From Candidatus Binatia bacterium (GTDB taxonomy: Bacteria; Desulfobacterota; Binatia; UBA9968), in the NCBI GenBank assembly GCA_041483675.1, contig JBGPGE010000001.1, positions 868-64,867 on the forward strand: a stretch of 64,000 bases of DNA, given 5' to 3'. The notes under the pieces were generated by a model. The model did not search any database. It was not told where the DNA came from and saw only the letters and a program-made list of their open reading frames with translations. A program made the translations under genes and the position numbers. Below, piece by piece: positions 51,732-52,978 of the stretch; positions within the stretch are counted from its first letter, which is position 1; each line of letters opens with the position of its first letter.

Positions 51732-52978
51732 GTAAGAAACGCCCGCAGCGTGTACTTGCGACTGGGCTCGCGCACGCGCTCCATCAGGCGGACGCCAAAG
51801 CCGGCGCGCGCCGCAAGCAGGCTCAACGACGCCGGGCTGAAGACGCAGCGGTGTTCGATGAAGAATTCCTCCCGCCCCGGTCCGTCTTGAGCCGCGGCCT
51901 CGCCGTCGGGCACCTCGACGTAAACCACTCCCCCCGGTTTCAGATGATGCTTGCTCTTGCCGAGCATCGCGATCGGGTCGGGCACGTGCTCCAGAACTTT
52001 GTTGAATGTGACGAGATCGTAGAGGCCGACGTCGTCGAGCTTCATGAAATCGCCCGTGATCGCCTCTATCCCCACTTCCTTCCGCGCGTGCTCCGCGGCC
52101 CGTGGGTCGGGATCGAGGGCCGCGCAGTTCCAGCCCGCCTCTTTCATTCTTTTGAGGAAGACGCACAGGCCCGAACCCACGTCGAGCACCTTGGGTCTCG
52201 CGTTGTCGCCGTATTTGAAGTCCGCCGCCTCGAACTGCTCGAACATGAACCGCACGATCCGCTCCACACGCCGGCAGTTGTCGGAGCGTTCGGCCGGCAG
52301 CGCCATGATCAGCCGGTAGGCGTCGGTCAGGCCGCGCTCGCCGTAGGTGGCCTGAACGTAGGCGCCTTCGTAGAGGGAATTCAGCGCCGCGTCTTGAACG
52401 TTCAAGTAGTGGCCGCAGCCGCCGCAGCGCTGGATCTCGCGGTAATACTTTCCCGACAGTTCCGGAAAAAACGTTTCGCCCGGCGGCGGGGCATCGTAGC
52501 GGAAGACGAGCGAGAAGTCGGACGAACCGCAGAGGGGACAATGCCAACCGAGTGTCAAGTGTCGAGTGTCGAGTGTCGAGTGTCGGATTTCGGATTTCGA
52601 GCCTTGAGTTTCGGATTTCGGATTTCGGATTTCGAGCTTATCGGGCAGGTGGAGCCATGAGAGAAGTTCCATTTTCTGAGTCTTGAGATAGGCGTGGAAC
52701 TGCTCCTCTTTGCCGTTTTCGACGAGCAATAGATAGCGCCGCTCGCCGCTTCGGACCAGCGCGGGCTTGAGACCAAGGCTCGGCAAGCGATGGTTGAGCG
52801 ACGGAGTCGCATAGTAGCCCCACTCCTTGCGCGCCACGTCGTACTCGGTCCCCGACGGTGTTACGAAGGTGACCTGCTCGTCCGTGTCGAGCTCGACGCG
52901 CCCGCAGTCTTTCAAATAAATCTCGCCGTTGTGTCCGACACCGAACACCCGCGGCGGCTCTATAGCTGTGAAGTTCAT
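51695..52978 (-). CDS. Methyltransferase with N-terminal extra domain, repeat-encoded linker, Zn-ribbon and class I SAM-MTase domain
   Basis: CPLCGS ... CGGCGH zinc-ribbon and MTase motif VLDVGSGLC. The linker EIRNPKSETQGSKSEIRHSTLDTRHLT is encoded by a heptamer tandem array. The C-terminal residues are encoded by the REP-like hairpin. Confidence 0.7.
   Translation of the reverse strand: MNFTAIEPPRVFGVGHNGEIYLKDCGRVELDTDEQVTFVTPSGTEYDVARKEWGYYATPSLNHRLPSLGLKPALVRSGERRYLLLVENGKEEQFHAYLKTQKMELLSWLHLPDKLEIRNPKSETQGSKSEIRHSTLDTRHLTLGWHCPLCGSSDFSLVFRYDAPPPGETFFPELSGKYYREIQRCGGCGHYLNVQDAALNSLYEGAYVQATYGERGLTDAYRLIMALPAERSDNCRRVERIVRFMFEQFEAADFKYGDNARPKVLDVGSGLCVFLKRMKEAGWNCAALDPDPRAAEHARKEVGIEAITGDFMKLDDVGLYDLVTFNKVLEHVPDPIAMLGKSKHHLKPGGVVYVEVPDGEAAAQDGPGREEFFIEHRCVFSPASLSLLAARAGFGVRLMERVREPSRKYTLRAFLTPHPFPLPQGEG
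52551..52636. repeat. Intragenic heptanucleotide tandem array (gagtgtc x4-5; ggatttc x6) inside the methyltransferase gene
   Basis: About 12 consecutive 7-bp units are visible. They lie between the N-terminal domain and the Zn-ribbon/MTase domain. Confidence 0.75.

What the first reader, a model, noticed from the sequence alone, without database searches (positions are those of the whole stretch)
52551..52636. In-frame heptamer array encodes the linker of a Zn-ribbon methyltransferase; a single-unit slip would frameshift the catalytic domain
About 12 tandem 7-bp units (GAGTGTC x4-5, GGATTTC x6) lie between an N-terminal ~110-aa domain and the Zn-ribbon + SAM-MTase domain of ORF 51695..52978. 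In the current state the total length keeps the frame, giving the low-complexity peptide EIRNPKSETQGSKSEIRHSTLDTRHLT. Gain or loss of one unit gives a +/-1 frameshift and truncates the product before the MTase domain. That would make methylation of the flagellar glycan phase-variable. The 3' end of the same ORF runs into a REP-like hairpin, so both ends of this gene are shaped by repeats.
Basis: partly seen in the sequence, partly recalled or inferred. Interest (0 to 1): 0.7.

Follow-up and report, generated by a model that had tools for sequence, protein, structure and literature searches.

The report
In-frame heptamer-repeat linker in methyltransferase
A run of twelve 7-base repeats really does encode the floppy linker of a sugar methyltransferase next to flagellin genes, but it looks like one of many slippage-made repeat arrays in this lineage, kept in frame by selection, and not a proven on/off switch.

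Summary
Window 52551-52634 is 12 tandem heptamers (7 CGAAATC-type, 5 CGACACT-type on the coding strand). That is 84 nt, or 28 codons, inside ORF 51695..52978(-). They encode a disordered linker between a conserved 110-aa N-domain and a Zn-ribbon/SAM methyltransferase.

The phase-variation reading is only partly supported.
- Period 7 dominates the window's tandem arrays. Most of the others fill gaps between genes, and two more lie inside ORFs.
- Ten orthologous linkers were compared, the window's included. All carry fresh or decayed short-repeat arrays at this junction, and all are in frame. Four are exactly 111 nt (3 + 15 heptamer slots + 3).
- Units are homogenised within a genome but differ between genomes. 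One ortholog pair shows +1 unit in one sub-array offset by -1 in the next. So single-unit slips do happen and are compensated.
- No out-of-frame variant was found. The longest perfect run is 4 units. A 99.95%-identical second assembly has the same coding array.
- In 55 of 124 homologous loci the two domains are separate genes, usually joined by an NTGA stop/start overlap.

In this gene a -1 slip gives a 138-aa N-domain ORF ending in TTGA, which might allow a restart. A +1 slip gives a 431-aa junk fusion, not a truncation.

Best reading: a slippage-generated linker under purifying selection, with occasional OFF variants.

The parts
52586..52634 (-). Sub-array A: 7 heptamer units on the coding strand (CGAAATC x3, CGAAACT, CAAGGCT, CGAAATC x2). 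Encodes roughly EIRNPKSETQGSKSEI.
52551..52585 (-). Sub-array B: 5 heptamer units (CGACACT x4, TGACACT). Encodes roughly RHSTLDTRHLT. Arrays A and B together are 84 nt, or 28 codons.
52555..52558 (-). TTGA created by the C-to-T variant unit. The TTG is in the methyltransferase frame, 18 nt before the first Cys codon. The TGA is in the frame entered after a -1 or +2 unit slip. It has the same form as the NTGA junction of split homologs, but it is not conserved in the clade and may be coincidence.
51695..52978 (-). The whole ORF, 427 aa: N-domain, linker, Zn-ribbon and class I SAM methyltransferase. More than 100 homologs of 370-437 aa have the same fused architecture.
52655..52978 (-). Conserved beta-rich N-terminal domain (residues 1-108). 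It has no Pfam family and no solved-structure match. It also exists as a standalone protein of about 113-146 aa in the best 120 of 422 metagenome hits.
52550..52645 (-). Residues 112-143, predicted disordered (pLDDT below 50). This is the array-encoded linker. The full linker from WL to the first Cys is 111 nt, which parses as 3 + 15 heptamer slots + 3.
51728..52540 (-). Zn-ribbon (C147, C150, C185, C188) and SAM methyltransferase domain. The fold resembles the NDP-sugar C-methyltransferases TcaB9, KijD1 and MtmC.
51700..51718 (.). REP-like hairpin (CCTCTCCC TGTG GGAGAGG) overlapping the last codons. It supplies the non-conserved tail PLPQGEG. A second copy lies at 9289-9307.
52981..53053 (-). 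Array filling the gap between genes directly upstream of the ATG: (GCAGGAG)3(GCAGAAG)7, which is rich in AGGAGG/AAGG motifs. It has 10.4 units here and 13.7 in the near-identical contig L081.
50796..50860 (.). Inverted pair of heptamer arrays (GCTTAGA / CTTAGCT). It fills the gap between the downstream methyltransferase gene and the AsnB-like gene.

Best explanation
The array is one instance of a lineage-wide tendency to build short tandem-repeat arrays, mostly heptamers, by replication slippage. The arrays form wherever the DNA is permissive: gaps between genes in an operon, surface loops, tails, and here the interdomain linker of a two-domain sugar methyltransferase.

The linker needs only to be open, flexible and of roughly the right length, so its sequence is free to be overwritten by slippage. 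Purifying selection removes unit numbers that break the frame. Only net changes of 0 mod 3 units persist, and these are often reached by a slip in one sub-array being offset by a slip in the neighbouring one.

The result is a disordered linker of about 35 residues whose unit sequences turn over quickly and are homogenised within each genome.

Single-unit slips must arise from time to time and produce non-functional or split alleles. They are a mutational cost, not a demonstrated regulatory switch.

Shown: the anatomy, the frame, the disorder, the conservation across the clade, the concerted evolution and the compensated slips. Inferred: slippage as the mechanism, and selection on frame and length.
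For: 1. Period 7 dominates. Ten of the 13 distinct tandem arrays TRF finds in the window have period 7. By contrast, 524 kb of more distant homologous loci hold one such array.

2. Arrays fill the gaps between genes at 6406-6462, 50796-50860, 52981-53053 and 56035-56175. They also lie inside two other ORFs: the HATPase_c loop at 4700-4776 and the NeuB tail.

3. The fused architecture is real and old. More than 100 homologs cover at least 91% of the query. The linker column is the most length-variable part of the alignment.

4. AlphaFold gives pLDDT below 50 for residues 112-143 exactly, and about 83 overall.

5. The nine orthologs of the clade (L082/86, L083, L084, L085/L001, L003, L002, L165, L166, L167) carry short-repeat arrays or their remnants at the same junction. 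Their units differ from each other and from the window's, and all are in frame.

6. Four of the ten linkers (the window's, L082, L083, L165) are exactly 111 nt and parse as 15 heptamer slots. L165 has 6+3 units where L082 has 5+4. Unit variants are shared by all copies within a genome. The two proteins are 75% identical.

7. L082 and L084 are about 95% identical outside the two variable loops, as read from alignment A3, yet share no array sequence inside them.

8. The coding array is identical in a second assembly that differs by 2 SNPs in 4.4 kb, while the longer upstream array differs.
Against: The arrays are 'fresh': 93% match here and 100% in L082. Together with the compensated slips, this implies ongoing slippage. 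Some frequency of out-of-frame cells is therefore unavoidable, and a selected switching role cannot be excluded.

Short-repeat arrays persist at this one junction even in relatives whose flanks hold few other arrays (L083, L084, L003). That is more than simple neutrality predicts.

The gene class is the one classically under phase variation in Campylobacter: flagellin-glycan modification (PMC3068675).

There are no read-level data. Consensus assemblies would hide minority variants.
Confidence: 0.6

Rival explanations
1. A true contingency locus. Slipped-strand mispairing in the heptamer arrays switches the methyltransferase ON and OFF at high frequency, giving phase-variable methylation of the flagellin nonulosonic-acid glycan, for example to evade flagellotropic phage.
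For: The unit length is not divisible by 3 and the array lies before the catalytic domain. The gene sits in a flagellin-glycosylation island. Compensated +1/-1 unit changes between orthologs show that out-of-frame intermediates existed. The arrays are kept fresh in several clade members. There is a precedent in the Campylobacter Cj1295 tract (PMC3068675).
Against: The longest perfect run is 4 units, or 28 nt. Two near-identical assemblies share the same array. All 10 orthologous linkers, the window's included, are in frame. No truncated near-identical protein exists in 5.8 billion clusters. The same kind of array sits in a histidine-kinase catalytic-domain loop and in gaps between genes, where switching makes no sense. 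A +1 slip makes a 431-aa junk protein, which is costly for a routine switch.
Confidence: 0.2
2. A fused/split toggle with three states. Frame 0 gives the fused enzyme. A -1 or +2 unit slip recreates the two-gene form of the family: a 138-aa N-domain protein whose TGA overlaps a TTG start for the methyltransferase, so translation is coupled and function is retained. Only a +1 or -2 slip is OFF.
For: Of 124 distinct homologous loci, 55 are split. In 32 of those the junction is an ATGA, GTGA or TTGA overlap, with the start 15-63 nt before the first Cys codon (examples). There are at least 21 fused-to-split changes on a neighbour-joining tree. The window has TTGA 18 nt before the Cys codon, in the right frames. 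Standalone N-domain proteins are common.
Against: The TTGA is absent from the other six clade members tested. My rough estimate of its chance occurrence is about 0.1. No Shine-Dalgarno motif is evident in the array units upstream of the TTG. No split variant of this species has been seen.
Confidence: 0.07
3. [quoted passage not shown] The linker array would then be a former intercistronic element retained after gene fusion.
For: Arrays abut start codons at 6470, 50779, 52978 and 56032. The upstream array is made of AGGAGG/AAGG motifs. Arrays occupy the same gaps (NeuB|AsnB, MTase2|AsnB) in L165 and L166, with different units and even period 9. A similar proposal exists for the TAACTGA repeats of Beggiatoaceae (PMC4679880).
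Against: Unit sequences are not conserved between sites or between genomes, so no common binding motif exists. The linker array RNA is no more structured than shuffles (z = +0.78) and has no inverted partner. Fused homologs without arrays are widespread, so fusion did not need an array.
Confidence: 0.1
4. An assembly artefact: the array length or frame is a mis-assembly of short reads across repeats.
For: Contigs of this population break at or near arrays. L081 starts inside the upstream array with a different flank. Neighbouring-gene contigs are only about 1 kb long.
Against: Two independent assemblies (NCBI and JGI) give the identical coding array. The 84-nt array is shorter than a typical read. 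The in-frame product aligns end to end with homologs.
Confidence: 0.03

Closest known systems
Over-represented heptamer simple-sequence repeats of Nostoc/Anabaena (STRR, GGGGATT), Xanthomonas (GGGAATC) and Beggiatoaceae (TAACTGA)
   Same: Period-7 tandem arrays far exceed other periods. They are mostly intergenic and close to start codons, and sometimes occur as inverted pairs. Length and sequence vary widely between close relatives at the same positions. A few copies lie inside ORFs at protein peripheries (PMC4692102, PMC4679880).
   Different: There is no single dominant heptamer here: at least 8 different units occur in 64 kb. The genome is about 61% G+C and is not one of the described lineages. 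One relative uses period 9, and another uses periods 8 and 15 as well as 7. Here the array forms an internal interdomain linker that is kept in frame in ten genomes of one clade.
Simple-sequence contingency loci in flagellin-glycosylation genes of Campylobacter jejuni (e.g. the Cj1295 poly-G tract)
   Same: A repeat whose unit is not a multiple of 3, inside a gene that modifies the flagellin nonulosonic-acid glycan. One slip shifts the frame (PMC3068675).
   Different: Those tracts are homopolymers with measured ON/OFF switching and visible length heterogeneity. Here the units are heptamers in runs of 3-4 perfect copies, and no variant was observed. The array lies between two domains that many relatives encode separately.
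Tandem repeats in Borg elements that create intrinsically disordered regions
   Same: Rapidly evolving, genome-specific tandem repeats that are both intergenic and inside ORFs. The ones inside ORFs create disordered segments (PMC9879509).
   Different: All Borg repeats inside ORFs have unit lengths divisible by three, so any copy number is in frame. Here the unit is 7 nt, and the frame survives only when the total unit number is divisible by 3.
TcaB9/KijD1/MtmC NDP-sugar C-methyltransferases
   Same: The same arrangement of an N-terminal Zn-binding module followed by a class I SAM methyltransferase domain (Foldseek E about 1e-14).
   Different: Only about 20% identity. There is no Methyltransf_14 C-terminal domain. 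There is an extra 110-aa N-domain of unknown fold. The substrate is unknown.

Membership tests
SSR-mediated phase-variable (contingency) locus | A repeat tract placed so that a change of one unit alters expression of the gene | tested here: met
   A 7-nt unit lies upstream of the catalytic domain. Simulated slips of +/-1 unit break the frame.
SSR-mediated phase-variable (contingency) locus | Tract-length polymorphism, including out-of-frame alleles, among closely related cells or strains | tested here: not met
   The array is identical in a 99.95%-identical second assembly. All 10 orthologous linkers are in frame. There is no truncated near-identical protein. Read-level data were not available, so minority variants are untested.
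SSR-mediated phase-variable (contingency) locus | A long uninterrupted tract that confers hypermutability | tested here: not met
   The longest perfect runs are 4 units (CGACACT) and 3 units (CGAAATC). The array is interrupted by 3 variant units.
SSR-mediated phase-variable (contingency) locus | Measured reversible switching of the phenotype | not testable with these tools
   This needs cultures or read-level population data.
STRR-like over-represented heptamer repeats | Period-7 tandem arrays in excess over other periods and over chance | tested here: met
   at the stricter threshold, 7 arrays at period 7 and none at any other period from 4 to 12. Twenty Markov shuffles gave none.
STRR-like over-represented heptamer repeats | Mainly intergenic, often next to start codons | tested here: met
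   Arrays at 6406-6462, 50796-50860, 52981-53053 and 56035-56065 fill gaps between genes and abut ATG codons.
STRR-like over-represented heptamer repeats | Arrays at the same position differ in length and sequence between close relatives | tested here: met
   L082 versus L084; L082, L165 and L083; L081 versus the window for the upstream array.
STRR-like over-represented heptamer repeats | One or a few characteristic heptamer consensus sequences genome-wide | tested here: not met
   At least 8 unrelated units occur in the window. Only 64 kb of the genome was seen.
Borg-type in-ORF amino-acid tandem repeats | Unit length divisible by three | tested here: not met
   The unit is 7 nt. The Borg rule is stated in PMC9879509.
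Zn-ribbon class I SAM-dependent sugar methyltransferase (TcaB9-like) | Glycine-rich SAM-binding motif, four-Cys Zn module and matching fold | tested here: met
   Pfam Methyltransf_23, E = 8.5e-23. The DVGSG motif and C150, C185, C188 are invariant. Foldseek match to 5t6b/4e33, E about 1e-14.
Zn-ribbon class I SAM-dependent sugar methyltransferase (TcaB9-like) | C-terminal Methyltransf_14 domain, and the sugar substrate | tested here: not met
   There is no PF08484 hit in this protein. It is present in the neighbouring ORF 42933..44195. The substrate cannot be tested here.

The most novel reading that the evidence does not exclude
The linker array, together with the position-conserved arrays in the gaps between genes of the same operon, is a maintained contingency system in the flagellin-glycosylation island of a free-living, uncultured lineage. 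Slippage of non-triplet units would move the methyltransferase between a fused form, a split but translationally coupled form (through the TTGA) and an OFF form. Neighbouring arrays would tune translation of adjacent cistrons. Together these would diversify the flagellar glycan, for example against flagellotropic phage.
Probability: 0.12. Interest if true: 0.75.

Novelty: new variant of a known kind. Interest (0 to 1): 0.42.

Why it matters
If the main reading is right, this is a clean natural example of how a mutational bias (heptamer slippage) and selection (on frame and length) together shape an interdomain linker. The linker is literally a chain of 15 seven-base slots. Its content is rewritten and homogenised within each genome, while its length stays fixed over protein divergence down to about 57% identity.

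It also shows that non-triplet repeats can persist inside genes through compensated slips. This contrasts with Borg repeats, where only triplet-compatible units occur in ORFs.

For annotation, it warns that 7-residue-periodic low-complexity segments in proteins from this lineage are repeat-derived. It also warns that assemblies break at these arrays.

If the minority reading is right, it would extend repeat-driven phase variation of flagellar glycans from host-associated pathogens to environmental bacteria, with an unusual fused/split/off logic.

Tried and rejected
1. Two separate genes joined by an open spacer. Rejected: more than 100 homologs are fused end to end.

2. A conserved cryptic NTGA restart in the clade. 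Rejected: only the window has it.

3. RNA structure in the array. Rejected: z = +0.78 against shuffles and no inverted repeats.

4. P0129, a 125-aa member of the P0008 cluster, as a possible OFF variant. Rejected: its contig L084 has frameshifts in every gene, which points to a noisy long-read assembly, and P0129 is the C-terminal part of the protein.

5. L045 as an out-of-frame array variant. Rejected: it is split by an array-free insertion of about 200 nt.

6. A search for truncated near-identical N-domain proteins. None above 62% identity.

8. Identifying the source organism. Its genome was not among the 80 best of 262 matching loci from GTDB species representatives. The nearest are MAGs labelled Binatia and Methylomirabilota, at 55-63% identity.

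9. The 5' flank of L081 does not occur in the window. Whether its longer upstream array is a true variant or a chimeric join remains open.

Full report
**Observation**

The sequence at 52550-52634 is a chain of 7-bp units. Tandem Repeats Finder reports two abutting period-7 arrays:
- 52549-52585: 5.3 copies, 93% match, score 67.
- 52583-52634: 7.4 copies, 76% match, score 60.

On the coding (-) strand the units read CGAAATC x3, CGAAACT, CAAGGCT, CGAAATC x2, CGACACT x4, TGACACT. That is 12 units, 84 nt, 28 codons.

The array is not chance. In my own scan, period 7 is the only period from 4 to 12 with arrays at the stricter threshold (7 versus 0). Markov shuffles give none.

**The gene**

Pfam finds a class I SAM methyltransferase domain at residues 258-396, and nothing in the first 113 residues.

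More than 100 database proteins of 370-437 aa match over at least 91% of the query. The N-domain + Zn-ribbon + methyltransferase architecture is therefore a genuine, widespread family and not two genes read through.

In the alignment, the segment between the conserved 'WLD' and the first Cys is the most length-variable part, at roughly 0-45 residues.

The gene's neighbours, all within, are:
- two AsnB-like amidotransferases;
- an ORF collinear with a 372-373-aa gene found just upstream of this methyltransferase in related loci (no Pfam hit);
- NeuB;
- an epimerase/dehydratase;
- a DegT aminotransferase;
- two cytidylyltransferases;
- further methyltransferases;
- flagellin and FliD, at 34.6-37.0 kb.

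A flagellin nonulosonic-acid glycosylation island is a fair description.

**The array is one of many**

TRF on the whole window lists period-7 arrays (or multiples of 7) at 4730-4776, 6437-6461, 50796-50860, 52549-52634, 52981-53053, 56035-56065 and 56117-56175. Only two arrays have other periods.

Most of them fill gaps between co-directional genes and abut start codons.

Three are inverted pairs of arrays, 74-80% complementary. The methyltransferase linker array has no inverted partner, and its RNA is no more structured than shuffles (z = +0.78).

Two further arrays are inside ORFs:
- One is an insertion in a loop of the HATPase_c domain of a hybrid histidine kinase (peptide SRNQESGIGAAPQPPIPNPKSLTPNS).
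- The other encodes the last ~19 residues of the NeuB ORF.

By contrast, 524 kb around 80 more distant homologs from GTDB genomes contain a single period-7 array. The habit is specific to this lineage.

Over-representation of heptamer repeats in some bacteria is known. It has been described for Xanthomonas, Nostoc and Beggiatoaceae, with arrays that are mostly intergenic, close to start codons and variable between relatives (PMC4692102, PMC4679880).

**Relatives**

The closest homologs form a clade with conserved gene order. At the DNA level every one carries short-repeat arrays, or their decayed remains, in the same linker:

| Locus | Linker arrays |
|---|---|
| L082/L086 | (CGAGTTC)5, (CAGCACT)4, (CCCAATC)3 |
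| L165 | (CACGTTC)6, (CAGCACT)3, (CCCAATC)4 |
| L083 | (CAGGTTC)5, (CAGCACT)4, CCAATCT-type x4 |
| L084 | GGGGTTG and CCCCGAT units |
| L085/L001 | (CGAAACT)4 |
| L003, L166, L002 | decayed versions |
| L167 | periods 7, 8 and 15 |

Counting the window's own linker, ten linkers were compared and all are in frame.
- Four (the window's, L082, L083, L165) are exactly 111 nt and parse as 3 + 15 heptamer slots + 3.
- The other six are 108, 108, 123, 99, 93 and 84 nt.

Three observations say the arrays are actively remodelled:
- L082 and L084 are about 95% identical in the conserved parts, as read from alignment A3. Yet they share nothing in the two array-bearing loops.
- Within a genome all copies carry the same unit variant, while genomes differ. 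This is concerted evolution.
- L165 has one more unit than L082 in the first sub-array and one fewer in the second, with the junction units conserved. A pair of single-unit slips has therefore compensated each other. The two proteins are 75% identical.

The window's own array shows the same logic. Its sub-arrays have 7 and 5 units. Neither number is divisible by 3, but their sum is.

**Evidence bearing on phase variation**

For it:
- The arithmetic is right.
- The gene class matches the Campylobacter precedent of repeat tracts in flagellin-glycan genes (PMC3068675).
- Compensated slips imply that out-of-frame intermediates existed.

Against it:
- The longest perfect runs are 3-4 units.
- A second assembly of the same population (L081, 2 mismatches in 4359 nt) has an identical coding array. 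Its longer upstream array appears to differ (13.7 versus 10.4 units), although the L081 flank is unresolved.
- No ortholog is out of frame.
- No truncated near-identical N-domain protein exists in the protein collection (best 62% identity).
- The same kind of array occurs where switching would make no sense.

**What a slip would do**

Simulation gives:
- -1 or +2 units: the N-domain ORF ends after 138 or 145 residues, at a TGA inside the variant unit TGACACT.
- +1 or -2 units: the ribosome enters a stop-free alternate frame and makes a junk fusion of 431 or 424 aa. This is not a truncation.

The TGA overlaps a TTG in the methyltransferase frame (TTGA, 52555-52558), 18 nt before the first Cys codon.

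This matters because the family comes in two architectures. Of 124 distinct loci, 69 are fused and 55 are split into two ORFs in different frames. In 32 of the 55 the junction is an ATGA, GTGA or TTGA overlap, with the start 15-63 nt before the Cys codon (examples).

On a neighbour-joining tree of 125 methyltransferase domains (the 124 loci plus the window's own gene), at least 21 fused-to-split changes are needed. Standalone N-domain proteins of about 113-146 aa make up the best 120 of 422 hits. One clade member, L045, is split by an insertion of about 200 nt in the linker.

Covalent linkage of the two domains is therefore not required in general. A -1 slip here might yield a working split pair.

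However, the TTGA is not conserved in the other six clade members tested, and I estimate its chance occurrence at roughly 0.1. I treat the toggle as speculative.

**Conclusion**

The most likely explanation (about 0.6) is a slippage-generated, STRR-like heptamer array occupying a permissive interdomain linker. Purifying selection holds it in frame and near a fixed length. Frame-breaking slips are an occasional cost.

A dedicated phase-variation switch (about 0.2), a fused/split toggle (about 0.07) and an RNA- or DNA-level role (about 0.1) remain open.

Read-level counting of unit numbers would settle the main question.

The case is a new variant of known kinds (heptamer SSR enrichment; repeats that create disordered regions). 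It is distinguished by non-triplet units maintained in frame in ten genomes of one clade through compensated slips.

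Noticed in passing
window 4691-4779: An inverted pair of heptamer arrays (AGGAATC x2-3 and TCCCCAA-type x6, 74% complementary). It is inserted in frame in a loop of the HATPase_c domain of the hybrid response-regulator/GAF/histidine kinase ORF 2280..5018, adding about 27 residues.
   Followed up: partly
window 56035-56175: The NeuB-to-AsnB gap holds three heptamer arrays and a strong terminator-like hairpin (56071-56090). 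The arrays at 56117-56175 encode the last ~19 residues of the NeuB ORF. The array at 56035-56065 ends 2 nt before the AsnB ATG.
   Followed up: partly
window 52981-53053 and L081 31-126: The array directly upstream of the methyltransferase ATG is made of Shine-Dalgarno-like GCAGGAG/GCAGAAG units. A 99.95%-identical contig has 13.7 units instead of 10.4, and a different 5' flank that is absent from the window. This is either a real variant or a chimeric join.
   Followed up: partly
window 6406-6462 and 50796-50860: These arrays in the gaps between genes are inverted pairs of heptamer arrays (80% complementary, 0-5 nt between the arms), so they could form long imperfect hairpins just upstream of start codons.
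   Followed up: partly
L165 4174-4322 and 10015-10116; L166 4978-5003: Relatives carry tandem arrays in the same gaps (NeuB|AsnB in L165 and L166, MTase2|AsnB in L165). L165 has two period-9 arrays in each gap, with unrelated unit sequences. L166 has a period-7 array. The position is conserved; the sequence and period are not.
   Followed up: no
homologous loci L001-L164: The methyltransferase family switches repeatedly between a fused gene and two overlapping genes. There are 69 fused and 55 split loci, at least 21 changes on a tree, and 32 of the 55 split junctions are NTGA stop/start overlaps.
   Followed up: yes
window 52655-52978 (N-domain): A conserved beta-rich domain of about 110 aa with no Pfam family and no solved-structure match. 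It is always found next to, or fused to, this methyltransferase. It is a candidate new domain family of unknown function.
   Followed up: partly
L045 3340-3560: An insertion of about 200 nt with no tandem arrays. It sits in the same linker and splits the gene into two ORFs. By eye its ends look like a small MITE-type element, but this was not tested.
   Followed up: no
window 9289-9307 and 51700-51718: Two copies of a REP-like hairpin (CCTCTCCC N4 GGAGAGG) just after, or overlapping, ORF ends. The second supplies the non-conserved C-terminal tail PLPQGEG of the methyltransferase.
   Followed up: partly
L082 1130-1199: A second variable loop of the ortholog, just before the SAM-binding motif, holds (GCAGATT)3(CAAATCT)6. 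This encodes QISNLKSQISNLKS. The loop is array-free in the window's protein.
   Followed up: no
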